Shown here: in pieces, positions 7,568 to 64,000 of the stretch
Layout of the letters: each line of letters begins with the position of its first letter
How positions within the stretch are numbered: position 1 is the first letter of the stretch
IMG/VR virus record: IMGVR_UViG_3300021255_002129
DNA length: 64,000 bases
Origin: a virus
Taxonomy: Duplodnaviria > Heunggongvirae > Uroviricota > Caudoviricetes
Reading direction: 5' to 3' (one strand)
Notes under the pieces: generated by a model
What the model was told of the DNA's origin: nothing
The model's input: the letters and a program-made list of their open reading frames with translations, nothing else
Databases searched by the model: none
Translations under genes and position numbers: made by a program

Positions 7568-8500
7568 ATGTATTTTATAATATTTCTATTATTATGTATT
7601 TCTTGTTTACTATTTTATTTATATTACAAAGAAAAAAACAAAACAAGAGAAATAGATGAAATAAATGAAAATATTAAAAAAGAAAATGAAAAAATAGAAG
7701 ATGAAAATAAATACTTAAATGAGAAAAAAGATTTTATACAAAAAGAAATTGAAAATAAACAAAATATTTTAAATAAAGTTCAACAATCAATAGAAAGTTC
7801 GGAACAAGTATCCAGAAATGCGTTTGAAAATTATATGGATACTTTAGATAAAGAATACGAGTTAAAAGAAAAAGAATATTATGCGGCAATAGATTTATTA
7901 AACAAAAGTTATGGAGATATACAAAATAAAGTTAATGCGGAAATCGATCAAATCCGTATAGACCTAGATAAAATTTCTGCAACCCGCACCGCCGCAATTC
8001 AAGCACAATTAGAAGAAGAAAAAATACAACAACAAGCAGAATATTATTCTTTATCTATTGATGATGTAGATAAACGAGAAACAAAAATATTGCAATCTAT
8101 TGAAAATGAACTCCGTGATCCTAGGCCTATCCGCATGATTATATGACAAACATATTATTCTAAAAAAGCAAATGAACTTGCTGCAAGAGTATTAGGAACA
8201 GAGGAAAAATGCGGAATATATAAAATTACAAATAAAACAAATAAACTATGTTATATAGGACAAGCTAAAAAAATTAGAGAAAGATGGCGTGAACATATGA
8301 AATGCGGTCTTGGAATAGACACTCCCGCAAATAATAAATTATATCAAGCTATGTATAAAGAAGGAATTGATAACTTTACTTTTGAAATGCTTGAGGAGTG
8401 CGCTACCGCAGATTTAAATGAAAAAGAAGCCTTTTATATTAATTTATATAATTCATATGATTATGGATATAATTCTAATAAGGGAATTAGAAATTCCTAA
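7568..8500 (+). CDS. membrane-anchored coiled-coil protein with a C-terminal GIY-YIG / T5orf172-like nuclease domain (DUF4041-like architecture); contains one in-frame TGA (Trp) at 8144-8146
   Basis: N-terminal TM 'MYFIIFLLLCISCLLFYLYY' is followed by a long coiled coil. The in-frame TGA is followed by 'GIYKITNKTNKLCYIGQAKKIRERWREH', a GIY-YIG/T5orf172 motif. Track ORFs 7568..8146 and 8297..8500 are in the same frame. Confidence 0.55.
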
Positions 8501-8501
8501 T

Positions 8502-8530
8502 TTGATTTATTAAATAAAAAATGATATAAT
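8502..8530 (+). promoter_or_regulatory. early promoter TTGATT-N17-TATAAT
   Basis: TTGATT at 8502-8507 and TGATATAAT ending at 8530. Confidence 0.55.
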
Positions 8531-8560
8531 ATAATTAGAAAATGAAAGGAGAAAAATAAT

Positions 8561-9199
8561 ATGTGGTTATCTTTTCTAAAAAGAATGAACAAAAATAAAC
8601 AATATATTACTTCTCTTGAAGATATTCCAAAATATATGAAAATTAGCAATAGAGAATTACAATTAGATACTTTGACACCTCAAATAGCTGAGTCTATTGA
8701 TGCTTATATTAGATTTTGGAATTTAGCAGATGACGAAATGGGAATTTTATTATCTGAAAGAGAACCTATTAAACTTTATATAAACTCAATTGGTGGAAGT
8801 TTAGATGCAGCAATTACAATTGCTAATTCAATTCAAATATCTAAAACACCTGTTTATACTTTTAATATTGGCTCTGTGCATAAAGAGAGTTTTTTGGTGT
8901 ACTTAGCTGGGCATAAAAGATTTACTTATGTTGATTCAACATTTATGTTTACAGACAGTATTTTTCAAAAGCCAGTTGAAGAAGAAAATGAGTCTACTTT
9001 TTATAGTAAAAATATGTTATTAACTGCTATTCAAGCAAATATAAAAACTTCTTTAATTGAAAAAACAGGAATTACAGAAGCTCAATATGATAAGCATTGC
9101 AAAAATGAATGGTGGTTTAATACTGATGATGCATTTAAATTACATATATGCAACGAAATATCAAGAAGTCATTATCATTATATAAAGAAAGATAGATAG
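8561..9199 (+). CDS. ClpP/S49-like serine peptidase family protein
   Basis: 'YINSIGGSLDAAITIANSIQ' resembles the ClpP 'INSPGGSV' region. The catalytic residues are not confidently assigned. Confidence 0.5.
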   Translation: MWLSFLKRMNKNKQYITSLEDIPKYMKISNRELQLDTLTPQIAESIDAYIRFWNLADDEMGILLSEREPIKLYINSIGGSLDAAITIANSIQISKTPVYTFNIGSVHKESFLVYLAGHKRFTYVDSTFMFTDSIFQKPVEEENESTFYSKNMLLTAIQANIKTSLIEKTGITEAQYDKHCKNEWWFNTDDAFKLHICNEISRSHYHYIKKDR

Positions 9200-32823: not shown

Positions 32824-33768
32824 ATGAATGATAAAATAGATATAGTAGTTACATACTTAAATGATCAAGACCAGCAGTGACAAGAAGAATTTAATAAATA
32901 TAAACAATATGAAGTTTCTAAAGGATGAATAAATCCCAATAGTATTCAAGCCTTCGGAGAAGAAAGAATAAGAAATTGAGATTTTACTCAGTATTGGTTT
33001 AGAGGAGTAGAAAAATGCTGCCCATGAGTTAATAAAATATTTTTTATAATTCAAAATGAACATCATATTCCAGAATGATTAAATACTACTAATCCAAAAA
33101 TTCGTATAGTATATCATAATGAGTTTATACCAAAAGAATTATTACCTACATTTAATCCTATGACTATTGGATTATATATTAATCAAATTAAAGATTTAAG
33201 CGATAATTATATTATGTGTGACGATGATTATTTCTTTTTAAATCCGATAGATGAAACTAAGTTTTTTATAAATAATAAACCTCAGCATGAAGATAACCAA
33301 GCTCCATATGGATACTTTTACGATGGTGATGAATTTTTACATATAATGAATAATTGCTTTGATTTTGAAAAAAAATATGACGATGGTAAAACAAAATATC
33401 ATTTTTATCATTTACCGACAGCAAGAAATAAAACATTAGAACAAAAAATTTTAAAAGATAATTATAATGATATATTAAATTCTCAAAGAGTTAGTAGATT
33501 TAGATACCCAACTAATTTAGATGCAAATATTTATTCTAATATTTTAAAATTAACTCACAATGCAGATATCCTACCAAAAGGTACTATCTATGGAAATAGT
33601 GCTTATGTTGCATTACAACCAAATATTGATTTTTATCAATATAAAGATAAAGAAATGGTTTGTTTCAATGACGTAGATTTAGTAACAGGGCATTTTGAAG
33701 AAATACAAAAATCTCTTATTGAATTTTTAAAATATAAATTCCCAAATAAGAGTTCGTTTGAGGTGTAA
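32824..33768 (+). CDS. Stealth-family (CR1-CR4) sugar-phosphate transferase; at least six in-frame TGA
   Basis: 'IDIVVTYLNDQDQQW' (CR1-like) and '[37 protein letters not shown]' (CR2-like). In frame with track ORF 33160..33768. Confidence 0.6.
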
Positions 33769-33770
33769 AA

Positions 33771-34565
33771 ATGAAAGAAAAATTTTTTAGTGTTATAATT
33801 CCTAATTACAATAATTCAACATATTTAGAAAAATGTTTAAAATCAGTATTAAATCAAACTTTTACTAATTATGAATTAATTGTAATAGATGATGTTTCAA
33901 CAGATAATAGTGTTGAAATAATTAAAAATATTTTTAATGAATACAAAGATAAAGATACAAAATTAATTGAATTAAAAGAAAAAGCTTGAAATGGCGGTAG
34001 CCGCAATATTGGTATTAAACAAGCTACCGGAAAATATTTTCTATTTTTAGATAGCGACGATTGATTTATGAATAATACTATATTCCAACAAGTCTATGAT
34101 TTTATCATAAGTAAAAATAACCCAGAATTAATTAGACTTTCTTTTGATATATTAACAAAAGATAATTGGCAATTTACAGTATGACTAGATGAAAAAGATT
34201 TAGATGAATTAGCAAATACTTGTTATGTAGCTTCTTGAATAAAATGCATTAGAGCAGATAAAATGATACCCTTTGAAGAAGATACATTAATGGAAGATGC
34301 AATTCAACATATTAAACAAATTGATGTCTTAACTAATTTTGAAGTTTTAAAAATATCCGCCGTATGTCATAATACTCAAAATCCAAATCAATGTAGCTCA
34401 CAAGAAAATAAAAAATTACAAGATGCTAAATGAGAAAAATCAATGCATAAATTTTATCAAAGTTTATTAGATTTAAAATGTAATCACGACTATTGTGAAA
34501 AAAGAAGATTATGAAAAATAGAAGAAGCAAAAGGCCATATTGAAAGAGGAGAGGCTTGACAATAA
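33771..34565 (+). CDS. family 2 glycosyltransferase (GT-A); about seven in-frame TGA
   Basis: 'FSVIIPNYNNSTYLEKCLKSVLNQT...IVIDDVSTD' followed by 'FLDSDD'. Confidence 0.7.
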
Positions 34566-35140
34566 TGAAATTATCAATAATAACACCATATTATAATTGT
34601 CTAAACTATCTTCAAAACTTAGTAAAGGTTTTAGAACCACAATTAACCAATGAAGTCGAATGAATTATTATTGATGATGGCTGCCATGAACAAGAACTTG
34701 ATAAAATTAAAGCAACTATAATACATTTATTAAATAATAGCGGATGTGCAGGAGTCCCTCGCAATTATGGATTAGATATTGCAAAAGGAGATTATATAAC
34801 TTTCGTTGATGCAGATGATTTAGTTTCTAAAGATTTTGTATCTAAAATAATAAATAAAATAAATTTAACAACATTTGATTATTGTTTAATGAGTTGAGAA
34901 AAAATAGATAAATCATTTTATGTAGACGTAACAACTGGAAGACCAGATTGAAACTGTAGTGTGTGAGGTATTATATATAACAAAAATAATTTAAAAAATG
35001 TGCGTTTTAATAATAAAAAATTTGCAGAAGATTATGATTTTAATCAAATAGCATTAAAAGGAAAAGAAGAGAGAATACTTGATTACTTATATTTTTATAA
35101 TAGCAATGAAAATGGACTATCTGCAAATTGGGAAGGATAG
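34565..35140 (+). CDS. family 2 glycosyltransferase (GT-A); four in-frame TGA
   Basis: 'LSIITPYYNC...IIIDDGC...FVDADD'. The ATG overlaps the preceding TAA. Confidence 0.7.
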
Positions 35141-35143
35141 AGT

Positions 35144-36256
35144 ATGGAAAATCAAGAACAATTTTATACAAATATATTCTATTTTGATAGAATAAATAAA
35201 ATAGGCGGAGTTGAGACTTTCTTTTACGAAATAGCAAAAAAATATTGTAATAATGATATTACTGTATTTTATTCTTTTGGAGATTTAAAACAAATCCAAA
35301 GATTAAAAAAGCTTATAAGAGTAGTTAAATACACAGGACAAAAAATAAAATGTAAAAAAGCATTTTTCAATTACAGTTTAAAGCCTATCGACAATATACA
35401 GGCGGAAAAATATTATGAAATTATCCATGCTAATTATAAAGATTTAGGTATTTATCCTAATGTTAGTCCAAAAATAGATGAATATATTGGAGTTAGTCAA
35501 TCTGTATGCAATGCATTTACAGAATTAACTGGTTTACCTTGCACGCTATGTTATAACCCAATTACAATAGATAAGCCTAAAAGAGTATTATATCTTATTT
35601 CTGCAACTAGATTAACAAGAGAAAAAGGAAAAGATAGAATATTAAAACTTGCAAAAGCATTAGATGATGCGAAAATCCCCTATGTTTGAACTATATTTAC
35701 AAATGATACTAAAGAGATAAAACATCCCAGAATAATCTTTATGGAGCCACAATTAAATATTAGAGATTATATCGCTAAATCAGATTATACTGTTCAATTA
35801 AGTGATACAGAAGCTTATTGTTACACGATGATTGAAAGTTTATTATTAAACGTCCCTATTATTGTAACTCCATGAAAATGTTTAAAAGAGTTAAATATAA
35901 CAGAAGAATATGGATTTATATTACCTTTTGATATGGAAGATATTCCTGTAAAAGATATTTATAATAAAGAATTTAATTTTAAATATAAATTAATTCCAGA
36001 TACTTGAAATAAAATAATTGAACCAAGCAAATCTACTTATCAAGAAGAATTAAATGCCAAATATATTGTAGAAGCATTAAAAACATATCAAGATAGAAAT
36101 TTCAAAGATGTTCAATTAGGAATTATTCCTAGTCCTGGTTCTAGATGGACGGTTACAAAAGATAGATTGGATTTATTGTTAGGAGAAAATGAAAATCAAG
36201 AGGCTTATGTAAAATTAATTGACATAGTTAAAGATGATAAAGGAGATGATATATAA
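35144..36256 (+). CDS. GT-B fold (GT1/GT4-like) glycosyltransferase; three in-frame TGA
   Basis: 'GGVETFFYEIAKK', 'ISATRLTREKGKDRIL' and an E-X7-E-like 'ESLLLNVPIIVTP' motif. Confidence 0.65.
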
Positions 36257-36762
36257 TGAATATCTTATCATTAGACCTTTCAACCAAATCAAGCGGCTGA
36301 GCTTATTTTGAAGATGGAGAACTTAAAGATCATGGATGCATTACATCTGCATCTACTGATTTAATTAAAAGAATATATATTATGAGAGATGGGATTGCGG
36401 AAATCCTTGATAAATATGCTGTAACCAAGATTGTTGTAGAAGAAGTTAGACCTGAAGGTGGTTACGGAGTAGGCAATACAAAAACTCATCGAGCTTTAAT
36501 GTGACTTCAGGCAGCAACCGCATTTTTAATTCATGATAATTACCCTTCTATTGAAATAGAATATATATATCCAAGTTCATGACGTGCAGCTTTAGGTATT
36601 AAAAATGGTCGCGGAATAAAGAGGACATCATTAAAAGAGCAAGATATACAATATGTTCAAGATAAATATAATATAAATGTAAATGATGATGAAGCAGATG
36701 CAATATGCATAGGTTTATCACAATATAAAGAAAAAGATGATAATGAAATAAATTGAGCATAA
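36256..36762 (+). CDS. RuvC-like Holliday-junction resolvase; three in-frame TGA
   Basis: 'LSLDLSTKSSGWAYF' (RuvC motif I-like) and 'DDEADAICIG' (catalytic Asp pair). It is the last gene before the convergent terminator. Confidence 0.7.
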
Positions 36763-36804: not shown

Positions 36805-37380
36805 TTATAATTCAGCTACAGTTTTTACATTAGTTAAATTAGAAAATTTACTTGTTATCCATCTTTTTGCATTATCATCTGCAACAATTATTTTACAATC
36901 ACTAGGTACGCTATTAAACATTCCAGTATATGAAGTAACATTACCAAAATTAAAATTGCGAATATCTAATAATGTTAATCTTTCACAATTTGCAAACATA
37001 TAGCTCATATCCGTAACCCTATTAGTATTAAAATTACTTAAATCTAAATTAATAATATGATTACAAGCATAGAACATATATCTCATATTATTAACATTTT
37101 CTGTATTAAAAGTACTTACATTTAAACTTGCTAAAACATCACAGTAATAAAACATTTGTGCCATAGTTGTCATTTTAGAAGTATCTAATGCAGCCAATTC
37201 AGGATTTAAGTCTCCTCCCTTATATTCCCTAAAAGATATAAATCTTGGAGAGTATGTAGTAGTAATACTATCAATAGCTTCACTCATATCTTCTGGTTTA
37301 TATTTAGTTGTATTTCCTTTTTTGCCACGAATACTATTTGCAATATTAGTTAAGTATTCTTTAGTTACTAATACTTTCAT
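36805..37380 (-). CDS. DUF285 (BspA/'Mycoplasma-type') repeat protein
   Basis: Tandem ~25-aa repeats such as 'NFNTNRVTDMSYMFANC' and 'NMRYMFYACNHIINLDLSNF' are characteristic of PF03382. Confidence 0.6.
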   Translation of the reverse strand: MKVLVTKEYLTNIANSIRGKKGNTTKYKPEDMSEAIDSITTTYSPRFISFREYKGGDLNPELAALDTSKMTTMAQMFYYCDVLASLNVSTFNTENVNNMRYMFYACNHIINLDLSNFNTNRVTDMSYMFANCERLTLLDIRNFNFGNVTSYTGMFNSVPSDCKIIVADDNAKRWITSKFSNLTNVKTVAEL

Positions 37381-49055: not shown

Positions 49056-49508
49056 TTACTTATTTTCTTCTTTTTTATGAATTACTGATACTATTGGTAA
49101 TACTCTTATATCTTTCATAAAACCATCTATAAAAGTATTTCCGTTTTCTTCTTTATAATGTTTGTATCTAGCTTCTATACATTGAAGATTATAGTCATCA
49201 ATATAACCTAAATCATAACAAAAATAATGATGTTTTTCAGTAATCCAAGCTTTAATATCGTCTTTATCTGACTCTATTAAAACACTAATTGATTTAGCCA
49301 TTTTATCAATTTGTTTATTATGTGATTCTAACGTATCTATCATCTTTTGATGTAATTCTTCTACCGATTGTTGCTTACTTGTTGTTTTTGTTATTCTATT
49401 TTTTGCTCAATCATAAAAATCAACAACACCCTTAATAGCAAATGCTAACATTACAACAAAAATAGCTATATCAGTTAATGAATAATTTTTAAGTAAATCT
49501 AACATTCT
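49056..49508 (-). CDS. N-terminally membrane-anchored protein (150 aa), one TGA; possible lysis-associated protein
   Basis: Strong RBS GGAAGGAGATATAGA, then ATG. TM segment 'IAIFVVMLAFAIKGVV', then 'DFYDW(TGA)AKN...', in frame with track ORF 49056..49343. Confidence 0.45.
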
Positions 49509-49943: not shown

Positions 49944-49976
49944 AAAATAAAAAAGAGGAGTATTTAGTTACTCCTC
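49944..49976 (-). terminator. rho-independent terminator after the holin gene
   Basis: GAGGAGTA-TTTAGT-TACTCCTC with a flanking A/T tract. Confidence 0.6.
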
Positions 49977-50393
49977 ATCATCTTTAACTTCCCAAGTAAT
50001 GACTTCAGTGTCTGAACTAATATTTGCTAAATCTACAACTCCTTGAATTGCTTTCTTTCCTTGTGCCACAATAGTTGCAGTGACTACACCTAATACTGCA
50101 ACACTTGATAATGTATTAAGTAATTCGCTTGATAATAATATTACTCCAAATGCACTTGTAATCATTTTATTAATAAATGGTAACATAGTAAATGCAACAG
50201 CAACAAACACTGAGCATACATAAAACGCTAATATTTTTGTAATACCTTTAATCATTTTCTTTCCATTAAAAGTTTCTTTTCCTGACCAAATATTAATTAA
50301 TGTTCCAGTTACAATATTAACAATAGCAAGAATAGCTAATGCAATACCTAACCATCCCATTATTTGTAAAGTTTTTAAAATTGCTTCTACCAT
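49968..50393 (-). CDS. holin (multi-TM)
   Basis: 141 aa with three or four predicted TM helices and a charged C-terminus, located next to the endolysin. Confidence 0.6.
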   Translation of the reverse strand: MVEAILKTLQIMGWLGIALAILAIVNIVTGTLINIWSGKETFNGKKMIKGITKILAFYVCSVFVAVAFTMLPFINKMITSAFGVILLSSELLNTLSSVAVLGVVTATIVAQGKKAIQGVVDLANISSDTEVITWEVKDDEE

Positions 50394-50767
50394 AATATCA
50401 TGCGGCGGTCGTCGGTCTTAGAACTTTTAGTCTTGCTCTTACGCATGCCTGATCGGCTCCCGCGCCTCCTTTCCTTATTGTTTCCGCACTCTCCACCTTT
50501 AGTGCAATTATAACCAAAAAGTGGAATATTACTTTTGTAATAACCTATTAAATATTTTTCTAACCTAACAGCTTGCTCTTGTGTCAATCCACTAGATATT
50601 ACAATGTGTTTAATGTTTTTTCAGCCATATTTTTTAATAGGTTTATAGACTAACTGGCCTTTATAGCCTCGCCCATTTTTCCATCTAGACTCAGGTTTTT
50701 GGCCAGTTAATCCAATATATCGTTTCCCATTAGGGAAAATTAATTCATATACACAATAATTATGCAT
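50387..50767 (-). CDS. GIY-YIG homing-endonuclease-like protein inserted between endolysin and holin; at least one in-frame TGA
   Basis: 'VYELIFPNGKRYIGLTGQKPESRWKNGRGY' is a GIY-YIG motif and '...LEKYLIGYYKS...FGYNCTKGG' is I-TevI-like. The ATG overlaps the endolysin TAA, and the TAG stop overlaps the holin start. The C-terminal basic tail is encoded by an anomalously GC-rich patch (~50400-50480). Confidence 0.55.
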
Positions 50768-51945
50768 TATAGTTTTTGTAGACTTGATGCTGGGTAGAAT
50801 CCTGTAGTTCCAGATCCATTTCCAACTTGATATGGATAAGGTCTTCCATCCCAAATTCTTAAAATTTGTCTAGTCCATCCAATACCATATGCAGTATTAC
50901 TTCCACCATAAGAACTTCCATTACCAGTTCCTATAATCTTAACTTTATCTCCTACTTGTAATCCAGTTGGTTGTGGTGTAGGTTGTGGAGCAGGTTCATC
51001 ATATTTTTTAATTGAACTTTGATCCATCCATCCTAAGTCTCCTGTTGTATTATATGGATGCGCGCTTCCTGGGTTTTTTCTTGTAATATAAGTAACTTTA
51101 TTACTTACACTTCCTGCAGGACTAGCTGCATTAGAATTAACATATAGAGGTCCATTGATTATTACATGGTCTCCAATATTAAATGCATCACTTGGACCTG
51201 GAGTAGGTGTAGGGGCAGGACTTCCGCCATCTATTAATTTTTGAACGTCATCTGGTAAATATATAAAACATCTAAAGTAATAATTACTTGAACATCCCCA
51301 TCTACCATTATTATTTGTTCTAATTTGGTTCCAGAATATTGTGCTTGAGCCCCATCCAGATTCAGATGTATAAACTTGATTATTACTATCTACTCTTTCA
51401 ACGATTGCTACATGACCAGCGCCTGAGTTTCCCCAGCACATAATTGCTCCACGTTTTGGGGTTGAACCAGTTTTAAGCCCCGCTGTCTCCGCTCTTTCTT
51501 TAAAATTAATAGCATTGCAATTTAAAGTTTTATAAGTACATCCGCTTGTATCTCTTGCAATATTTATAATTTCATTAAATCTACCACTTGCATAACCTAC
51601 GCAGTTTGCTAATGCATTTGCTGGTGCATATAATGGATTACCTTTGATACAAGTATTCCATCCACCAGAACCTGTAACTATAAAGTTTTTGTTATTAGCA
51701 GGTCTGCTAATTCTCATTATAAAACCCGCAGCACCTATACCTTCAGGTTCATCTGCGTTAAGGTTTTCAATTTCATAATGCTCATCCGCATCATTTAATT
51801 CTTCAGGTGTGTCTGTGTTAAATAAATATTGAACATTTTCGTCATCAATATCATCTCTTAAAAAAGCTTTAGCAACCATAGTTTGCACTTCTGTAGGTGC
51901 CATTTCCACTCTTTTAATTCTTTCTTCACTTGATAATTGTGCCAT
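50767..51945 (-). CDS. endolysin: CHAP-domain peptidoglycan hydrolase with two C-terminal SH3b-like cell-wall-binding domains
   Basis: CHAP catalytic Cys 'ANCVGYASGRF' and His 'GAGHVAIVERVD'. A Pro/Thr linker 'PAPTPTPGP' precedes two SH3b-like repeats ('GDHVIINGPLYV...', 'LQVGDKVKIIGTGNG...'). Confidence 0.8.
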   Translation of the reverse strand: MAQLSSEERIKRVEMAPTEVQTMVAKAFLRDDIDDENVQYLFNTDTPEELNDADEHYEIENLNADEPEGIGAAGFIMRISRPANNKNFIVTGSGGWNTCIKGNPLYAPANALANCVGYASGRFNEIINIARDTSGCTYKTLNCNAINFKERAETAGLKTGSTPKRGAIMCWGNSGAGHVAIVERVDSNNQVYTSESGWGSSTIFWNQIRTNNNGRWGCSSNYYFRCFIYLPDDVQKLIDGGSPAPTPTPGPSDAFNIGDHVIINGPLYVNSNAASPAGSVSNKVTYITRKNPGSAHPYNTTGDLGWMDQSSIKKYDEPAPQPTPQPTGLQVGDKVKIIGTGNGSSYGGSNTAYGIGWTRQILRIWDGRPYPYQVGNGSGTTGFYPASSLQKL

Positions 51946-52378: not shown

Positions 52379-54190
52379 TTAGGATGTTGTTTTTTGTATT
52401 GTAACACTTGCCAAGATATTACCCGATTCTATACTTTCAGCAGACGGAAATCGTTTTCTATATGAAAAAATAGGCACATTCGATGAATCTATACTTATAT
52501 TAGTGTTAACATCATTTGTTAAAGCATTATTTCCTACTTGTGCATATAAATCGTATACGTCTATAGATGAGTCATTACTAAAAGTAATAGTTCTTTTTTT
52601 AACCATTACAAAAGTCCACGTTCTAATATATGAATTGTATTTGTCAATTACTTCAATTGTGTTTGAATTGCGAATTTTTATTGTTGCATCAAAAACTATT
52701 CCATTTCTGATTCTTATTATTGGCGAATTTAAAGTAGTAGAAAGTATAAAACTACATAAATAATAATACGAATTTAAATCAAACGTTTGTCCACTATAAT
52801 ATGGTGTTATTTCAGAATTATTATTTAACTGTAAACAATATGCTGGATCATCATAATTAACTAAATTATTAGTATTATTAAATTTATTATTGGACAAATG
52901 AATATTATCATTAGCTATCATATATCTATAATCACTAGCATGATTAAATCTTATAAAAGCACAATCACCTTTTAAAGCTGAATTAAACTTACTATTTGTA
53001 ATTGAAATATATGCTTGTTTTCTTTCTCCAATATAAATTGCTGAAGTTTCACTATTTTCACTAAATGCATCATAATAATACACACAACAATTTGTTAAAA
53101 AGTAGTTTCCATTATCATTATCAAATTCAAAACCTCTAGCATAAGTATCAGCATAACAATTTGAAAGAACAGCACTCCCTTGTGTAAACAAAAAACCAAT
53201 AGTCGTATTTTTTAAATCATCTGTAGATTGGCTATTATATAAAGCTGTACAATGAATATCATCAAACGTTTGAAAACCACCTGTCATTTTAATACCAATC
53301 TGACATCCATCAATTCTTATATGAACTATTTCATTATCATAAGAGTCAATCTTAATAGCTGTTCCTTGATTACTATCTTTTCTAAAAAAATCACAATATG
53401 ATACTTTTACATCACCACTTGTATAACGTTGGTTAAGAGATAAATACAACCCAAAATCTTCTATATTTTTAAATACTGTTTTTGCTAATTGCACTAGTTG
53501 TCTACCACTGTCTATTACCATACCTTTTGATACATTAGAACAATCAATAATACCGCCTTCAACAAAAATAACATTATTAGCCTTTGTTCTACTATAAGTT
53601 CCTTTAGTATCATCTAAGCCAATTTCAATCAATGTCTCTAGTTTTTCATTAGAAATATTTTTAATTAGTGCATTTTCATCTAGTTTAAGATTTACACCAT
53701 AATTATTAGCTTGATAAACTATAATTTTATTTGTTATTCCATAGTCTCCTTTTGGGAAATAAATTGTCTTTAGAGGGTTCTCATCAATAGCTTTTTGAAT
53801 GGCTTGTATATCATCATGTATTCCATCGCCATAAGCACCATATTGTTTAATATTAATAAAATCTTCAGCAATCAATGTAGCATATTTATCATTGCTTAAT
53901 ACTTCTTGATAATCAGTTTCACTTTTTTCATCAGTTATCTTATATGTAGCTCCACCACCATCATTAATCTCATAATATCCAAGCGTTACTACCATATCTC
54001 CAACTTTTAATTTCGTATCAGCTTTCATGTCTGCAACACTGTTATAATAATAAGGTTTTTTATTCAACTTTAATTGAACAGACTCACCATCACTAGTCGA
54101 TACATTCTGAGCTTCTGCTCCAATAGGAATATAATCAGTAAAAGTGCCATCTTGTTTTTTTATTTTAATTTTCTTAAATAAATCTGCCAT
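52379..54190 (-). CDS. tailspike/receptor-binding protein with pectate-lyase-superfamily (right-handed beta-helix) depolymerase domain
   Basis: 'IKQYGAYGDGIHDDIQAIQKAID' is the hallmark motif of PF12708. The N-terminal anchor 'MADLFKKIKIKKQDGTFTDYIPI' is shared with the other fibre proteins. Confidence 0.7.
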   Translation of the reverse strand: MADLFKKIKIKKQDGTFTDYIPIGAEAQNVSTSDGESVQLKLNKKPYYYNSVADMKADTKLKVGDMVVTLGYYEINDGGGATYKITDEKSETDYQEVLSNDKYATLIAEDFINIKQYGAYGDGIHDDIQAIQKAIDENPLKTIYFPKGDYGITNKIIVYQANNYGVNLKLDENALIKNISNEKLETLIEIGLDDTKGTYSRTKANNVIFVEGGIIDCSNVSKGMVIDSGRQLVQLAKTVFKNIEDFGLYLSLNQRYTSGDVKVSYCDFFRKDSNQGTAIKIDSYDNEIVHIRIDGCQIGIKMTGGFQTFDDIHCTALYNSQSTDDLKNTTIGFLFTQGSAVLSNCYADTYARGFEFDNDNGNYFLTNCCVYYYDAFSENSETSAIYIGERKQAYISITNSKFNSALKGDCAFIRFNHASDYRYMIANDNIHLSNNKFNNTNNLVNYDDPAYCLQLNNNSEITPYYSGQTFDLNSYYYLCSFILSTTLNSPIIRIRNGIVFDATIKIRNSNTIEVIDKYNSYIRTWTFVMVKKRTITFSNDSSIDVYDLYAQVGNNALTNDVNTNISIDSSNVPIFSYRKRFPSAESIESGNILASVTIQKTTS

Positions 54191-54888: not shown

Positions 54889-57066
54889 TTAGTCAATAAC
54901 ACTAACTTCATTAAATTTATAATCATTCTCACAAATATACTTATTCTTTATAATAACATTTTCAAGTAATGAAACAACTGTTGTTATTGCAATTTTCCTC
55001 ATGTCATCTCTACTTCCTGTATAATCATCACCAGACGTTGTAGCAAGTTCAATTAAAAAACCATGCAAATTCATAACACCACTATACCATTCATCAAAAG
55101 AACCATGAAACTCACCAGTTTTCTTTAAAGTAAAGCAATTTTGGTTATTTGTATATTCTGTTTTTAACCAATCAAAATTAGAACGCATTTGTGAATTTAA
55201 GGCTTTAATGGTAGAATAACCAATATCCAAATCTGATTTAAAGCCACTTGCAAAATATCCAATAACACCACCAGCAGTCAAAGAAGCTGTTGAATGTCTA
55301 TTAATAACTAAGAATATTTTATCTTTGTTGTTACGAATATAGTCACATAATATTTGAGTTTCAATTTCACTTTCAGGATATTGTCCTGAAGAATTGTATT
55401 CATTATCACTATATACCCAATTTGCATTGAAATTTCTATTAATATTCACATTATTTCCATTATTTCTTATATGGTGTTCATAACCATATGGGTTTATTGT
55501 TGGTATTACTTCAAATATGACATTATCAAATAAATTCTTTAAAGCATCATTTGTACCATAATTGTCCAATATGTCTTTAAACATCATATAGTCATCTAAT
55601 GCAATAGTTTCTTCATTACCATGCATTGAACCAACATATAGAATTGTTAATTTTTGTTTTGGTATCTGTTGTAATGCTATATTTTCATTGTGTGAATTAA
55701 TAGTGTATTTTCTTATTTCTAGGTTATCTGTAGTAGTCCCAAGAACTGTTTTAGTAATAAATGATGAATAAGTATTTAGTAACCCATCCCATAAATCATA
55801 TAATGTTGATAATTTATTTGTAGTATAATATGGAACAATTGCCTGATTAAAATTATATTTAGAAAATTGAGAGCAAATTTCTATAATTTTACTTATATTA
55901 TTATTTTCAGGATTAATTATATATTTATCATAGTATAAATTTAATGTCATATGATTTAATGCATTATTTACTCTTTTGGCATTAAAATTTTCAGATGATG
56001 AACCATCATCGATTGAAAATCTAATATAACAATCTTGATTAATGATGAATTTATCTATTCCATATGTTCTATAATCTATTAAATACGATGAATCTTTATC
56101 ACTAAAAGTACAAATATTAAATTGAACATTGCCATCACTACTAATTGATGAACCTTTTAACACTTTAATATAATCAATTGTTCTAAAACGTGATGGGAAT
56201 GTATTATTAATTCCTGTTGATGAAATTTGACCCTGTTCAAAATTTGAATATGATAAATTATGTTTATTATACAAATTATCATTAATATTTTGTATTCTGT
56301 TCTCTATGTCTGTATTTTTTGATTCTTCTAATAAATTTAATGTTATATGAGATAAAGCTGAGTCTACTCTTTCTTCATTAAATGTTTCAGATGAGCTACC
56401 ATCATTAATTGAAAATCTAATATAACAGTTTTGAGAAACAATGTAAATGTTTGTTGAAAATGTTCTATACTCTAACAAAGAGCTTGTATTTTTATCACTA
56501 AAAGTACAAATATTAAATTGAACATTGCCATCTGTTTCAATAGAAGTTCCTTTAAGCACTTTAATATAATCTTTAGTTCTAAATCGTGATGGAAATGTTG
56601 TGTTTATTCCAGAAGAACTTATTTGACCTTGTTCAAATTTTGAATATGATAAATTATACTTATTATACGAATTATCAATAATATTTTGTATTTTTTTATC
56701 GTCTTCATTTAATCTTTCATTAATTTCTTCATAATCGCTACTTGCTTGATAAAGTCCACCATCTACCCAAGTTGTACCATTGTAATAATACCAATGACCA
56801 TCAATAGTTAAAACATAAACTCTTGTTGTATCAGTCATTTTACTTATTGAATTTGCTACTAATGGGCTTCCACTTGCTAAGCTATTTATTTGATTTTGTA
56901 AACTATTGATACTAGAATTAACATTTATAACATTAGCTTTATTATTTAATTCATTAGTCAATGTATTTCCATTAACATCGACATGGTCACTATCAACAGC
57001 TAATGGAATACTATCACTATATGAACCATCTTTATTTTCTAATTTAACATATTTTAATTTATCCAT
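54889..57066 (-). CDS. tail fibre with internal duplicated domain and C-terminal M14 zinc-carboxypeptidase-like domain
   Basis: Shared N-terminal anchor 'MDKLKYVKLENKDGSYSDSIPL'. Two ~120-aa repeats are ~70% identical ('NLSYSKFEQGQISSSGINTTFPSRFRT...' and 'NLSYSNFEQGQISSTGINNTFPSRFRT...'). M14 motifs 'SMHGNEET' (HxxE), 'NPYG', 'NRNF' and 'INRHS' are present. Confidence 0.7.
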   Translation of the reverse strand: MDKLKYVKLENKDGSYSDSIPLAVDSDHVDVNGNTLTNELNNKANVINVNSSINSLQNQINSLASGSPLVANSISKMTDTTRVYVLTIDGHWYYYNGTTWVDGGLYQASSDYEEINERLNEDDKKIQNIIDNSYNKYNLSYSKFEQGQISSSGINTTFPSRFRTKDYIKVLKGTSIETDGNVQFNICTFSDKNTSSLLEYRTFSTNIYIVSQNCYIRFSINDGSSSETFNEERVDSALSHITLNLLEESKNTDIENRIQNINDNLYNKHNLSYSNFEQGQISSTGINNTFPSRFRTIDYIKVLKGSSISSDGNVQFNICTFSDKDSSYLIDYRTYGIDKFIINQDCYIRFSIDDGSSSENFNAKRVNNALNHMTLNLYYDKYIINPENNNISKIIEICSQFSKYNFNQAIVPYYTTNKLSTLYDLWDGLLNTYSSFITKTVLGTTTDNLEIRKYTINSHNENIALQQIPKQKLTILYVGSMHGNEETIALDDYMMFKDILDNYGTNDALKNLFDNVIFEVIPTINPYGYEHHIRNNGNNVNINRNFNANWVYSDNEYNSSGQYPESEIETQILCDYIRNNKDKIFLVINRHSTASLTAGGVIGYFASGFKSDLDIGYSTIKALNSQMRSNFDWLKTEYTNNQNCFTLKKTGEFHGSFDEWYSGVMNLHGFLIELATTSGDDYTGSRDDMRKIAITTVVSLLENVIIKNKYICENDYKFNEVSVID

Positions 57067-57121
57067 TAAAATCTTCTCTCCTTTCTTAAGATTGAGATTA
57101 TATATCTCATTTCTAAATCTA

Positions 57122-57163
57122 TATCAAAAGAAGGGACAAATAATTATCTTATTTTGTCCCTTC
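57122..57163 (-). terminator. rho-independent terminator (minus strand)
   Basis: Perfect 11-bp stem GAAGGGACAAA/TTTGTCCCTTC flanked by an A/T tract. Confidence 0.6.
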
Positions 57164-57406
57164 TTCATTAATACTTGCGGCAACCGACTCTTCGGTTTTA
57201 GAATTAGATTCTTCATTTGTTTGGCTAGCTTTCAATTCTTTTTTAGCCATTTCTGCACGTTCTATATCTTCTTTTTTACAAAATTCAAAATATTGTTGTT
57301 CAATTTCTGTCATTATACTTTTCATAATAAAATATATTGCATCTATTGATATTCCACTTTCATTTAAATCCTGTACAATTTTTTGTTCTAAATCTCTAAA
57401 TATCAT
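57149..57406 (-). CDS. hypothetical protein (85 aa)
   Basis: RBS AAAGGAGTAAAAAG, then ATG. True TAA stop. Confidence 0.45.
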   Translation of the reverse strand: MIFRDLEQKIVQDLNESGISIDAIYFIMKSIMTEIEQQYFEFCKKEDIERAEMAKKELKASQTNEESNSKTEESVAASINEEGTK

Positions 57407-61640: not shown

Positions 61641-61673
61641 ATAAAAAAGAAGGTAACCTTCCGATTACCTTCT
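61638..61673 (-). terminator. rho-independent terminator overlapping the tape-measure stop codon
   Basis: GAAGGTAA...TTACCTTC hairpin with a flanking A/T tract. Confidence 0.5.
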
Positions 61674-64000
61674 GTTAGCTCTCATACTAGCCATATTAAC
61701 TAAGTTGTTTAGAGCTTCTTCTATTTCTCTTGAGTCTTTTACGTTAGGGAATTGAGCATCAATGTGAACATTTTGTTCTAATACATCTCCACCAACTTCA
61801 GTACCTAATCCTCCTGCGGTTGCCGCAGCAAGTTTTCCTAACACTGAACTTCCTAACATATTAGTTATATTTCTCATAATACTAATAGCATTTAACATAT
61901 TAGCAGTATCTTCTTTATTTAATACTAATTCCTTTTGATGTAATAGAGCTAGGCGACCATCACTTCCCCATTCGCCTGTGTATCCACCAGTATCATATCC
62001 AGATAATTGAGATTTCTTAACCCATCCAAGGTCTCTATATCTACCATCTGCACTATGAATATGAATACCATAAGGATTATTAGTAATTCTATCAACTACT
62101 ATACCATTAGCAACTCCTGAATATTTACTTCCAGTTGGACTAGAACCATAAGAGTCATAATAGTATCTACCAGAATATGTTGCGGTTTCACCTACAACTA
62201 AATTATTGTCTCCACCTAGTGCGGAACCTCCTCCAGCACCAGAGCCAGATGAGTCACTTCCTGAACCTGAACTTCCACTTCCAGATCCAGAACCTCCATT
62301 AGCATTACCGGCTGCTGCAGCAGCTTGTCTTTGTTGTTCTGACCAATATTCATAAGCAGCTTTAGTAGCAGCGATTGCCGCATCCTTAGCAGCATTATAT
62401 TTATTAACCAAATCATCAAGCTGAGCTATAACATTACCAATAGCAGTTAATTCTTGTTCATAACTATTGATTAATTCAGTATTATCACTAATTAATTGTT
62501 GAGTTCTATTGATATTTTCATCAATGCCTTCTCCAATACTTTCAAAATCAATTCTACCAGTATTTTCTAATTCATCTAATCCATCTTCATAATCTTTAGT
62601 TGCATCATGAAGTTGATCAAAGGCGTCTTTACATACTCCTAAGAATCCACCCTCCCCAGCAAACACATCAGTCATATGTTGAACTCCAGATTCCCAATAA
62701 GGTAATAAATCGCCCATTAATACATCTTTTTCTTCATCAGACATATTTTGGAAATTTGCAACATCTATATCATATAATCTAGATAAATCATTAAAAGCTG
62801 ACTCATGTAAATTATTTCTAACAGTTGTATTTTGTTCAGTTAAACCATTTATTAATTGTTCATATTGATTTTGTAATAATAGTTCTCTTTCACTTCTTGC
62901 AACTGGGTCATTGATTTGAGCGGCTTCAGCCATTTTTTCTTGGAATTCAACTCAAACGTCATACATTTGATTTAAGTTATCTTGATATCTTGCTTTATCA
63001 AAGTTATAAAGTGAATTATACATATCATTTAATTCGTCTTGTAATTGACCAATTTGGTCTCCATCCGCAGTATATTCATATCTATAATTACCTTGACTAT
63101 CTCTTCTTAATCTCATTTTAGATTTATTTTGTTGAGCTTCTTGAAGAGCAATTTGTTTTAAAGCAATTTCATATTTTTTATTAGCTCTTTCAATATCATA
63201 TTCAGTTAATTTATCTCTTTCACGTAAATCCGCAAGTTCTTCATCCATAATCTTTTTAAGTTGTCTTTGTGCGGAAATACTATCAGTTTGGTCTAAAGCA
63301 TCTAAATATTTACCTTCAAGTTTTTGAACTTCATATAATGAATTAATTGTATCTAAATATTGGTCTGCATTTTTATTAATTAAATTCCATTCTTCTTCAA
63401 TATATTCAAGTCCTAAATTATCAGTAATTTTATTATTTAAGTTTTGGAATATTAAATTAATTGCATTTAAATATTTATCTTGAAGATTTTGAATTGATTC
63501 TTCAATTAAATCATTCATTGATTGAACTGCATCAGCTCATTTTTCTCTTGCGTTTTCTCATTCATCAGAACCCTCTTCTAAAGTATCTAACTGTTGTCTC
63601 CAGAAATCCGCTTGTTGTCTTTGAAAATCTAATTGACTATTAAAGTTTTGTTGTTGTTTATCATAATATTTAGCTAATTGACTATAAGATTGTTCTCCAT
63701 ATACTAATGATATTACTTCCATATCATGTTCGATTAAATCACTAATCATTTCATATGCTTCAATTTGTTCATCAAATTTCTCTTGAGCCTCATCCATCAT
63801 ATCTATATAAGATTCATGAATTTCTTTTTGAAGTTCAAGCACGTCTGTAAGATTAGACATTAATTCTTCATAATATTTCTTTAAGTCATCTAATGCAGCA
63901 GTTCTATTATCACCATAAACATTAGACCAACCATTAGTATCCATTTGATTTAATTCAGCTAATGTATTATCTACTTGTTTTCTTAATGCTTGAACTATAC
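61665..64000 (-). CDS. tail tape-measure protein, C-terminal ~780 aa (5' end beyond window); at least two in-frame TGA
   Basis: Track ORFs 63558..63944, 62952..63518 and 61665..62933 share a frame and are bounded by TGA. Extensive coiled coil, a Gly/Ser linker 'GSGSGSGSSGSGSDSSGSGAGGG', and a true TAA stop at 61665. Confidence 0.6.

What the first reader, a model, noticed from the sequence alone, without database searches (positions are those of the whole stretch)
50767..51945. CHAP + 2xSH3b endolysin argues against a wall-less (Mollicute) host despite code-4-like TGA use
The catalytic Cys/His CHAP signature and two SH3b-like cell-wall-binding repeats are typical of endolysins from phages of Gram-positive cocci and bacilli. 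Together with the holin and the M14 and pectate-lyase-like fibre enzymes, this indicates a peptidoglycan- and polysaccharide-bearing host.
Basis: partly seen in the sequence, partly recalled or inferred. Interest (0 to 1): 0.6.

Follow-up and report, generated by a model that had tools for sequence, protein, structure and literature searches.

The report
Standard-code endolysin in TGA-recoded phage
The gene is a real cell-wall-cutting enzyme (endolysin) of a large rumen or gut phage that reads the stop codon TGA as tryptophan, so the host probably has a cell wall; this kind of recoded phage has already been published.

Summary
Window 50767-51945 (minus strand) is an intact 392-aa ORF. It has an acidic N-terminal extension, a CHAP peptidoglycan-hydrolase domain (Pfam E 6e-14; Cys115, His178, Glu195 invariant) and two C-terminal ~65-aa repeats. 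The repeats fold as SH3-like barrels but match no Pfam SH3b family. They form an unassigned wall-binding module found on many lysins, and a third copy sits on this phage's tape measure.

The gene lies next to a holin, and that adjacency is kept in relatives. dN/dS is about 0.2. I read it as the endolysin.

TGA recoding in the window is real: TGA means Trp, and 24 of 63 genes contain it. The lysin gene itself has no TGA, so the proposed TGA-to-TGG edit is unnecessary.

Several results argue that the phage, not a code-4 host, supplies UGA decoding:
- TGA use is mosaic across genes.
- Relatives with 72-82% identical lysins use the standard code.
- The replication and tail genes are SPbeta-like.
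- A 92-97% identical relative carries a tRNA-Trp(UCA).

This matches the published "Agate" recoded phages. The host itself was not identified. The tRNA(UCA) has an odd extra arm that mimics a CCA anticodon loop and deserves follow-up.

The parts
50767..51945 (-). Endolysin gene, 392 aa, no in-frame TGA. It has an N-terminal acidic extension, a CHAP domain and two SH3-like wall-binding repeats.
   Evidence: ORF; Pfam CHAP; 4600 homologues; dN/dS about 0.2; 0 TGA and 8 TGG.
51691..51945 (-). N-terminal extension, aa 1-85. It is acidic (20 D+E against 6 K+R) with no hydrophobic signal-like stretch. Function unknown.
   Evidence: Composition. Conserved in homologues. Two short helices, otherwise low confidence. 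dN/dS 0.08-0.31. No family match.
51241..51690 (-). CHAP catalytic domain, aa ~86-235. Catalytic codons: Cys115 at 51601-51603, His178 at 51412-51414, Glu195 at 51361-51363.
   Evidence: Pfam E 6e-14; PcsB alignment; Foldseek probability 1.0 to 4cgk, 9eum, 5t1q and 2k3a; invariant residues; coordinates.
50998..51189 (-). Wall-binding repeat 1, aa 253-316: an SH3-like barrel not assigned to any Pfam family.
50770..50967 (-). Wall-binding repeat 2, aa 327-392: the same module.
50387..50767 (-). Free-standing GIY-YIG homing endonuclease between lysin and holin. It overlaps both and has one in-frame TGA (codon 49, 50621-50623).
   Evidence: Pfam GIY-YIG E 8e-7; PHROG homing endonuclease E 1e-15. 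Absent from relative L005, where the holin follows the lysin by 13 nt. TGA position.
49968..50393 (-). Holin, 141 aa, no TGA.
   Evidence: Pfam Phage_holin_4_1 at 23 bits against a cut-off of 22.2; TIGR01593 weak hit; 64% identical to the holin beside the lysin in L005.
49955..49976 (-). Terminator-like hairpin followed by a T run, at the end of the lysin, endonuclease and holin unit.
   Evidence: 4 terminator-like sites found against 0.8 expected. Consensus scan only.
49056..49505 (-). 149-aa protein with an N-terminal hydrophobic segment (transmembrane by inspection of the sequence) and one in-frame TGA (codon 33). Candidate lysis regulator.
   Evidence: Weak Pfam Mt_ATP-synt_B hit. This is the same label that Borges et al. 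report for the recoded TM protein of the Agate lysis cassette. TGA position.
52379..54190 (-). Pectate-lyase-like tail fibre or depolymerase, 603 aa.
   Evidence: Pfam PF12708 E 4e-11; PHROG tail fibre.
54889..57216 (-). Tail-fibre-like protein with a C-terminal M14 carboxypeptidase domain.
   Evidence: Pfam Peptidase_M14 E 2e-23.
61992..62201 (-). Third copy of the same SH3-like module, inside the C-terminal part of the tape measure protein (gene 61665-63944 and beyond).
   Evidence: 32% identity to lysin repeat 1, E 8e-6; aligned; tape measure assignment; coordinates.

Best explanation
The ORF encodes the endolysin of a ~136-kb SPbeta-like phage from rumen or gut metagenomes.

How it most likely works:
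- The enzyme has no signal sequence, so it should accumulate in the cytoplasm late in infection.
- It reaches the wall through the neighbouring holin.
- Its two C-terminal SH3-like modules anchor it to the wall.
- Its CHAP domain (Cys115-His178-Glu195) cuts the peptide part of peptidoglycan. It acts either as an amidase or as a cross-bridge endopeptidase; which bond is not determined.

The phage reads TGA as tryptophan in a subset of its genes, mostly tail, glycosyltransferase and lysis-accessory genes. The lysin and holin are written in the standard code. UGA decoding is supplied by the phage itself, through a tRNA-Trp with anticodon UCA inside a large tRNA array.

The host therefore need not use code 4. 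It is most likely a peptidoglycan-bearing member of the Bacillota.

Shown here: domain identity, conserved catalytic residues, purifying selection, holin adjacency, TGA = Trp, mosaic TGA use, and a tRNA(UCA) in close relatives.
Inferred: the bond cleaved, the wall ligand, the timing, the host identity, and the presence of the tRNA in this exact genome.
For: - CHAP domain and catalytic residues.
- The C-terminal module co-occurs with CHAP (52), M23 (29), GH25 (11), Amidase_2 (9) and NlpC/P60 (7) among 122 distant carriers. It is C-terminal in 91 of 150.
- A holin is adjacent in the window and in relatives, including one lineage with the order inverted.
- No other lysin was found in the window.
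- dN/dS is 0.17-0.20.
- Window TGA codons align to TGG in a standard-code relative at 11 of 13 aligned comparisons (two paralogous genes in L005); the other two align to Tyr or Phe.
- 24 of 63 genes carry TGA, and every gene ends in TAA or TAG.
- The lysin has 0-1 TGA in all 25 relatives.
- The DnaE polymerase is closest to SPbeta-like Bacillus phages and Enterococcus phages. Genes on the contig carry YorF, YorH, YomU and YomV family labels.
- tRNA-Trp(UCA) is present in a relative 92-97% identical in DNA, and in contigs that carry lysin homologues (L006 and L021).
- The pattern agrees with the published Agate clade.
- Phage tRNAs(UCA) from such metagenomes insert Trp in cell-free assays (bioRxiv 10.1101/2025.10.30.685624).
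Against: - No enzymatic or binding data exist.
- The CHAP part of the structure model is poor (pLDDT 21-74 per ten-residue block).
- The gene lies inside the tail gene block, and relatives carry a second, classical lysin (GH25 + CW_7 + LysM) near the holin. The CHAP protein could therefore have an entry role instead of, or as well as, a lysis role.
- The 85-aa acidic N-terminal extension is unusual for an endolysin and is unexplained.
- No tRNA was found in the window or within ~9 kb either side of it. The suppressor is inferred from relatives.
- The host was not identified. Genome-bin labels of relatives include 'Mollicutes', 'Bacilli' and 'Bacteroidaceae'.
Confidence: 0.78

Rival explanations
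1. The CHAP protein is a virion-associated (tail) peptidoglycan hydrolase used to pierce the wall at entry, not the lysis enzyme.
For: - The gene sits between tail-fibre genes and baseplate or tail genes.
- Relatives have a separate GH25 + CW_7 + LysM lysin close to the holin.
- The same binding module occurs on the tape measure protein.
- The conserved N-terminal extension could be a docking segment.
- One Foldseek hit is the CHAP domain of the phi812 baseplate hub protein.
Against: - Adjacency to the holin is kept across rearranged contexts.
- The size and layout (one catalytic domain plus two C-terminal binding modules) are those of modular endolysins. Most carriers of the module are 250-400 aa lysin-like proteins.
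- No other lysin was found in this window.
- The hub hit reflects the CHAP fold only.
Confidence: 0.12
2. The host is a code-4, wall-less Mollicute (Mycoplasmatales). TGA is read by the host, and the lysin is vestigial or serves another purpose.
For: - TGA means Trp, as in code 4.
- GC content is low, at 28.6%.
- A DUF285 'Mycoplasma protein' domain lies at 36805-37380.
- One relative's contig is binned in a MAG named 'uncultured Mollicutes bacterium'.
- The glycosyltransferase block uses TGA for 24 of its 28 Trp codons.
Against: - Only 39% of genes use TGA, and TGG outnumbers it 161 to 70. Large early genes have none, for example DnaE with 0 TGA and 19 TGG.
- Relatives with a near-identical lysin are written in the standard code.
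- The lysin, its catalytic residues and both binding modules are under purifying selection.
- Relatives carry their own tRNA-Trp(UCA).
- The lineage is SPbeta-like.
- Bin labels are weak evidence. NCBI's 'Mollicutes' label covers walled RF39-type lineages.
Confidence: 0.04
3. The host is a thin-walled, uncultured relative of the Mollicutes within class Bacilli (orders RF39, RFN20 or ML615J-28), not a classical Gram-positive coccus or bacillus. The lysin then targets a reduced peptidoglycan layer.
For: - Two of the three genome-collection hits to the lysin lie in MAGs labelled 'uncultured Bacilli bacterium' and 'uncultured Mollicutes bacterium'.
- These orders live in guts and are mostly predicted to keep a thin peptidoglycan wall (PMC10868615).
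- The phage has low GC content and its nearest cultured relatives infect Bacilli.
Against: - Binning of phage contigs into MAGs is unreliable. A third hit is in a 'Bacteroidaceae' bin.
- The visible ends of these contigs are all phage genes, with no host flank.
- No spacer or integration evidence was obtained.
Confidence: 0.25

Closest known systems
TGA-recoded 'Agate' phages (Borges et al., bioRxiv 10.1101/2021.08.26.457843; published in Nat Microbiol 2022)
   Same: - Genome of ~127-154 kb, found in ruminant and other animal guts.
- TGA read as Trp.
- Replication genes mostly in the standard code; tail and lysis-region genes recoded.
- The lysis cassette contains a recoded TM protein labelled 'ATP synthase B chain'.
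- Recoded homing endonucleases.
- Close standard-code relatives with almost no TGA stop codons.
- GC skew typical of bidirectional replication.
   Different: - Membership was not tested by terminase phylogeny or by direct sequence comparison, because the Agate genomes were not available here.
- In this genome the lysin and holin themselves are free of TGA.
- The glycosyltransferase block is the most heavily recoded part of the window.
Bacillus phage SPbeta and relatives (including Enterococcus faecium phages H1 and VRE9)
   Same: - Genome size of 125-140 kb.
- DnaE-type polymerase 39% identical over 99% of its length.
- YorF, YorH, YomU (tube) and YomV family genes.
- The hosts are walled Bacillota.
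   Different: - SPbeta uses the standard code.
- From my own knowledge, not checked here: SPbeta lyses with the BlyA amidase, and its tape-measure-like CwlP carries the wall hydrolase domains.
- Here the lysin is CHAP-based, and the tape measure carries only the binding module.
CHAP-domain peptidoglycan hydrolases (PcsB of Streptococcus pneumoniae, PDB 4cgk; staphylococcal CHAP proteins 2k3a, 5t1q; phi812 hub 9eum)
   Same: The sequence around the catalytic His and Glu is the same (E 5e-10). The Cys-His-Glu residues are conserved. The fold matches with probability 1.0.
   Different: - PcsB is a secreted division hydrolase with a coiled-coil regulator.
- This protein has an acidic N-terminal extension, an extra ~45 aa before the catalytic Cys, and two C-terminal barrel modules.
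Bacterial SH3 (SH3b) and GW wall-binding modules (Psm endolysin 4krt, Listeria Auto 5jqc, AtlE R2ab 4epc, InlB 1m9s)
   Different: - No sequence match to Pfam SH3_3, SH3_5 or other SH3b models. The only hint is a GW hit at E 0.023 for one distant member.
- Non-wall SH3-like barrels (PsaE, KOW) score as well or better.
- The module has its own motif: G-D-x-V near the start, P-Y in the middle and G-W/F near the end.

Membership tests
CHAP domain (Pfam PF05257) | Profile match above the curated threshold | tested here: met
   52.7 bits against a cut-off of 26, E 6.1e-14, aa 113-196.
CHAP domain (Pfam PF05257) | Conserved catalytic Cys and His (plus an acidic or polar third residue) | tested here: met
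   Cys115, His178 and Glu195 are invariant in 31 homologues. The His and Glu stretch aligns to the PcsB CHAP domain.
CHAP domain (Pfam PF05257) | Papain-like CHAP fold | tested here: inconclusive
   Foldseek gives probability 1.0 to solved CHAP domains over ~90 residues. However, the model of this region has low confidence (pLDDT 21-74 per ten-residue block).
CHAP domain (Pfam PF05257) | Amidase or endopeptidase activity on peptidoglycan | not testable with these tools
   Needs the purified enzyme and muropeptide analysis.
Bacterial SH3 (SH3b) wall-binding domains (Pfam SH3_3, SH3_5 and relatives) | Sequence match to an SH3b family profile | tested here: not met
   No Pfam hit for the whole protein at E<=1. 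No hit for the isolated lysin repeats or the tape-measure copy at E<=10, and only a GW hit at E 0.023 for one distant member. The profile finds no PDB sequence at E<=10.
Bacterial SH3 (SH3b) wall-binding domains (Pfam SH3_3, SH3_5 and relatives) | SH3-like beta-barrel fold | tested here: met
Bacterial SH3 (SH3b) wall-binding domains (Pfam SH3_3, SH3_5 and relatives) | Binding to peptidoglycan or wall polymers | not testable with these tools
   Only indirect support: the module is fused to many peptidoglycan hydrolase domains.
Holin-endolysin lysis cassette of phages of Gram-positive bacteria | Lysin gene adjacent to a holin gene | tested here: met
   In the window only a homing endonuclease separates them. 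They are directly adjacent in L005. The order is inverted but still adjacent in L033.
Holin-endolysin lysis cassette of phages of Gram-positive bacteria | Modular lysin: catalytic domain plus C-terminal binding domain, no secretion signal | tested here: met
   Architecture. The N-terminus is acidic and not hydrophobic by inspection. No signal-peptide predictor was available.
Stop-codon-recoded phages of standard-code hosts (Agate-type, TGA to Trp) | In-frame TGA that corresponds to Trp | tested here: met
   11 of 13 window TGA comparisons align to TGG in a relative; the other two align to Tyr or Phe, and none to Gly.
Stop-codon-recoded phages of standard-code hosts (Agate-type, TGA to Trp) | Partial, module-wise use of the recoded codon, with close standard-code relatives | tested here: met
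   24 of 63 genes (39%) carry TGA. The published range is 26-71% for phages of standard-code hosts, against ~90% for phages of recoded hosts. Standard-code relatives are shown.
Stop-codon-recoded phages of standard-code hosts (Agate-type, TGA to Trp) | Phage-encoded suppressor tRNA | tested here: inconclusive
   None in the window or within ~9 kb either side. Present in a 92-97% identical relative just beyond the reachable DNA, and in contigs that carry lysin homologues.
Stop-codon-recoded phages of standard-code hosts (Agate-type, TGA to Trp) | Placement in the Agate clade by terminase phylogeny | not tested
   The terminase lies outside the window, and the reference genomes were not available.
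Phages of native code-4 hosts (Mycoplasma or Spiroplasma phages) | TGA used as the main Trp codon throughout the genome | tested here: not met
   70 TGA against 161 TGG. 39 of 63 genes have none, including DnaE (0 against 19), ligase (0 against 9) and the lysin (0 against 8).

The most novel reading that the evidence does not exclude
The phage recodes UGA in a walled, standard-code host by means of an unusual tRNA. It is a tRNA-Trp (A1-U72 pair, G73) with anticodon UCA. Its variable region holds an extra hairpin with a covarying stem, and the hairpin loop always shows UCCAA, a copy of the CCA anticodon loop of normal tRNA-Trp.

The mimic loop might keep the suppressor chargeable by the host tryptophanyl-tRNA synthetase, which normally reads the CCA anticodon. 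The phage would then need no synthetase of its own.

The structure is well supported in relatives. All 25 Trp-type long-insert UCA tRNAs recovered carry the loop; the covariation score is 0.875 against 0.233 in shuffles. The proposed function is speculation. I found no description of this tRNA in the papers I could search.
Probability: 0.3. Interest if true: 0.75.

Novelty: new member of a known kind. Interest (0 to 1): 0.3.

Why it matters
For annotation: a window that looks like code 4 is not evidence of a Mycoplasma-type host. The lysis genes give an independent and here consistent reading of the host envelope.

Practical points:
- The lysin can be expressed as it stands, because it contains no TGA.
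- A labelled version of its binding modules could be used to fish out the unknown host from rumen or gut samples.
- The binding module is a widespread, uncatalogued lysin domain: 573 clusters at 50% identity.

The general phenomenon, TGA-recoded phages of standard-code Bacillota with recoded lysis-region genes, is already published, so the finding mainly adds a well-characterised example. The suppressor tRNA with an anticodon-loop mimic, seen in close relatives, is the part that could open a new question.

Tried and rejected
- TGA = Gly (code 25, Absconditabacteria or Gracilibacteria) was considered. It was rejected because TGA aligns to TGG and never to a Gly codon.
- Searches for a named family for the C-terminal repeats found nothing usable: Pfam at E<=1 and E<=10, NCBIfam, PHROGs, and PDB sequences by profile.
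- A protein search of cultured and deposited phages with the lysin gave only two weak CHAP-only hits, so there is no named close relative.
- tRNA searches were negative in the window (ARAGORN; Rfam), in ~9 kb either side, in 21 lysin loci and in 60 tail-tube loci. The array was found only after walking along a relative.
- I could not read the rest of the window's own 136-kb contig. Look-ups are limited to proteins encoded in the window.
- The metagenome scan for the exact tRNA found 17 contigs, but none from sample 3300002641, which holds the identical lysin.
- A search for relatives of the Stealth glycosyltransferase in viral contigs found none. I therefore could not test whether that TGA-rich block was recoded in place or acquired.
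- A literature search for MAG UMGS1109 found nothing.
- The published Borges paper (PMC9197471) and its supplementary tables were not available. The Agate host phylum is therefore not cited from the paper's table.
- The full-length structure model was poor in the CHAP half. I relied on sequence evidence there.
Full report
THE GENE. Window 50767-51945 holds a 392-aa ORF on the minus strand that is intact under the standard code. Pfam finds one domain, CHAP, at aa 113-196 (52.7 bits against a cut-off of 26, E 6e-14). The stretch around the catalytic His and Glu aligns to the CHAP domain of pneumococcal PcsB (E 5e-10). About 4600 homologues exist in metagenomes, and the best 120 are all at least 77% identical. 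In an alignment of 31 of them, Cys115, His178 and Glu195 are invariant. Against six relatives the gene shows dN/dS of 0.17-0.20. All four parts (N-terminal extension, CHAP, repeat 1, repeat 2) lie between 0.08 and 0.31. It is a working gene.

THE C-TERMINAL REPEATS. Two ~65-aa segments (aa 253-316 and 327-392) are separated by Pro/Thr-rich linkers. They resemble each other at 32% identity (E 4e-4). They model confidently as small beta-barrels: pLDDT 80-92 in the full model and 82-90 in a C-terminal-only model.

A profile of the single module finds 573 cluster representatives among 1.84 billion proteins. They carry one to three copies, and in 91 of the best 150 the module is at the C-terminus. 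In 122 carriers the partner domains are CHAP (52), M23 (29), LysM (16), GH25 (11), Amidase_2 (9), SH3_3 (8), CW_7 (7) and NlpC/P60 (7). This is the signature of a cell-wall-binding module of modular lysins. A third copy lies near the C-terminal end of this phage's tape measure protein (61992-62201; E 8e-6). So '2 x SH3b' is right for the fold and the probable role, but not for family membership.

THE NEIGHBOURHOOD. Reading along the minus strand, the order is:
- tape measure;
- a 1314-aa tail protein;
- an M14-peptidase fibre protein;
- a pectate-lyase-like fibre protein;
- a 433-nt gap;
- the lysin;
- a GIY-YIG homing endonuclease that overlaps both its neighbours;
- a Phage_holin_4_1 holin;
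- a terminator-like hairpin;
- a 72-aa ORF;
- a 149-aa protein with an N-terminal hydrophobic segment;
- more tail genes.

In relative L005 the holin follows the lysin directly. In another lineage (L033) a homologous holin lies directly upstream of it. Lysin-holin adjacency therefore survives rearrangement. Relatives also carry a classical GH25 + CW_7 + LysM lysin near the holin. This window has no homologue of that lysin.

THE GENETIC CODE. With TGA read as sense, 63 genes tile the window. Of these, 24 contain in-frame TGA (70 TGA against 161 TGG), and all end in TAA or TAG. Window TGA codons in two tail genes align to TGG in a relative at 11 of 13 comparisons, to Tyr or Phe at the other two, and never to Gly. 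The meaning is therefore Trp, not the Gly of code 25.

Use of TGA is strongly uneven:
- None in GyrA, ligase, DnaB, DnaE (0 against 19 TGG), NrdD, the lysin (0 against 8) or the holin.
- Many in tail genes, for example 8 against 8, 8 against 9 and 6 against 3.
- Dominant in a block encoding a Stealth enzyme, two GT2 and one GT1 glycosyltransferases and a RuvC-like protein by sequence motif, with no Pfam hit (24 TGA against 4 TGG in 32824-36762).
- One each in the homing endonuclease and the 149-aa protein.

Among phages sharing this lysin at 72-82% identity, some are recoded. Others have essentially no in-frame TGA and also no TGA stop codons. The lysin has 0-1 TGA in all 25 relatives.

WHAT PHAGE THIS IS. 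The identical lysin lies on a 136,410-bp ENA contig. The record labels suggest sheep and cattle rumen samples; that is my reading of the labels and is not verified. The replication module includes gyrase, NAD ligase, DnaB, RecJ, DnaE and NrdDG. The DnaE is closest to Bacillus SPbeta-like and Enterococcus faecium phages of 125-140 kb (39% identity, 99% coverage). Genes on the contig carry YorF, YorH, YomU and YomV family labels.

The following features fit the 'Agate' clade of Borges et al. closely:
- the genome size;
- the animal-gut source;
- TGA = Trp;
- replication genes mostly in the standard code, with tail and lysis-region genes recoded;
- a recoded protein in the lysis cassette that draws the label 'ATP synthase B chain';
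- recoded homing endonucleases;
- standard-code relatives stripped of TGA stops;
- a clean GC-skew switch at about 36.8 kb.

I could not test clade membership by phylogeny.

HOW UGA IS READ. The window has no tRNA, and neither does the ~9 kb on either side of it. Walking along a viral contig that is 92-97% identical in DNA to the window's contig reached an array of 24 tRNAs plus a tmRNA-like gene. The array starts about 2.4 kb beyond the DNA I could reach.

The array includes a 96-nt tRNA with anticodon UCA, 5 nt upstream of a normal tRNA-Trp(CCA). It scores 60.4 bits on the Rfam tRNA model. It has the A1-U72 pair and G73 of bacterial tRNA-Trp. The same tRNA occurs on contigs that carry lysin homologues (L006 and L021).

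Phage tRNAs(UCA) from such metagenomes insert Trp in cell-free tests (bioRxiv 10.1101/2025.10.30.685624). The phage lineage therefore brings its own UGA decoder. That this exact genome has it is an inference.

AN UNEXPECTED DETAIL. That tRNA has a 23-nt insert in the variable region, and the insert forms a second hairpin. I recovered UCA tRNAs from viral contigs using a search pattern based on the anticodon arm:
- 12 have normal length.
- 12 look like tRNA-Sec.
- 25 are Trp-type with a long insert, and all 25 show UCCAA in the loop of the extra hairpin.

In the extra hairpin 85.8% of cells are paired, against 51% in shuffles. There are 40 cells with changes on both sides. The covariation score is 0.875 against 0.233, and slid registers reach at most 0.25.

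The loop copies the anticodon loop of tRNA-Trp(CCA). From general knowledge, TrpRS uses the CCA anticodon and G73 as identity elements. I therefore suspect the mimic helps charging, but this is speculation. I found no description of it.

HOST. Evidence for a walled member of the Bacillota:
- a functional holin and lysin pair of Gram-positive type;
- a wall-binding module on both the lysin and the tape measure;
- peptidoglycan-related and polysaccharide-related tail enzymes;
- phage glycosyltransferases;
- SPbeta-like ancestry.

Evidence against a native code-4 host is the partial TGA use, the standard-code relatives and the phage-borne tRNA(UCA).

Caveat: three genome-collection hits lie in bins labelled 'uncultured Bacilli', 'uncultured Mollicutes' and 'Bacteroidaceae'. 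What is visible of these contigs is all phage genes. NCBI's 'Mollicutes' label covers the orders RF39, RFN20 and ML615J-28, most of which are predicted to keep a thin wall (PMC10868615). A wall-less host is unlikely. A thin-walled relative of the Mollicutes remains possible.

VERDICT. Two corrections apply. The repeats are SH3-like only in fold, and the lysin gene has no TGA. I rate it a new member of a known kind, with modest interest. The suppressor tRNA with an anticodon-loop mimic lies outside the window and is seen only in relatives. It is the most promising lead.

Noticed in passing
L122 13115-13210 (relative IMGVR_UViG_3300037400_002591); also L123-L136, L175 and 13 further loci: A tRNA-Trp-type tRNA with anticodon UCA carries an extra hairpin in the variable region. 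The hairpin loop (UCCAA) copies the CCA anticodon loop of tRNA-Trp. The stem covaries (score 0.875 against 0.233 in shuffles). All 25 Trp-type long-insert UCA tRNAs recovered have it. No description was found in the searchable literature.
   Followed up: partly
L122 5338-20316: An array of 24 tRNAs covering most amino acids, plus an ARAGORN tmRNA call (8526-8948). It starts about 2.4 kb beyond the left end of the DNA reachable from the window. The relative is 92-97% identical in DNA to the window's contig.
   Followed up: partly
window 50387-50767 (-): A free-standing GIY-YIG homing endonuclease with one in-frame TGA is wedged between lysin and holin and overlaps both. It is present in some relatives (L039) and absent in others (L005), as expected of a mobile element.
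   Followed up: partly
window 61992-62201 (-): A third copy of the lysin's wall-binding module sits inside the C-terminal part of the tape measure protein.
   Followed up: partly
window 32824-36762 (+): This block encodes a Stealth phosphotransferase, two GT2 and one GT1 glycosyltransferases and a RuvC-like protein by sequence motif (no Pfam hit). TGA is the main Trp codon here (24 TGA against 4 TGG), unlike the rest of the plus-strand genes. Whether it was recoded in place or acquired could not be tested.
   Followed up: partly
L004 2263-3420; L005 13221-14378: Relatives carry a second, classical lysin (GH25 + CW_7 + LysM, 385 aa) near the holin. The window has no homologue.
   Followed up: yes
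L005, L008, L011, L013, L017: Standard-code relatives use TGA neither in frame nor as a stop codon (0 of 14-18 ORFs per locus). This is the 'unassigned codon' state proposed as a step towards recoding.
   Followed up: partly
window 51691-51945 (-): The lysin has a conserved, acidic 85-aa N-terminal extension (20 D+E against 6 K+R) with two short helices. It matches no family and its role is unknown. Other CHAP-plus-module proteins, such as P0121, lack it.
   Followed up: partly
L028 1678-5942 (contig DNA just left of the window): Metallophosphatase, HNH, RNA ligase and AAA_33 kinase-like genes lie between the tRNA array and the replication genes. This could be a tRNA repair set.
   Followed up: no
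window 36805-37380 (-): A 191-aa protein with a DUF285 domain ('Mycoplasma protein of unknown function', E 8e-22) sits at the start of the minus-strand late block.
   Followed up: no
window ~36800: GC skew flips sign where the plus-strand and minus-strand gene blocks converge. This fits a replication terminus and bidirectional replication.
   Followed up: no
window 7568-8500 (+): A 310-aa protein among the early genes has a coiled-coil-like N-terminal part and a C-terminal GIY-YIG domain. It contains one in-frame TGA.
   Followed up: no
L025, L026, L027: Contigs carrying lysin homologues are binned in MAGs labelled 'uncultured Bacilli bacterium' (rabbit), 'uncultured Mollicutes bacterium UMGS1109' (181-kb contig) and 'Bacteroidaceae'. 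The visible parts are all phage genes.
   Followed up: partly
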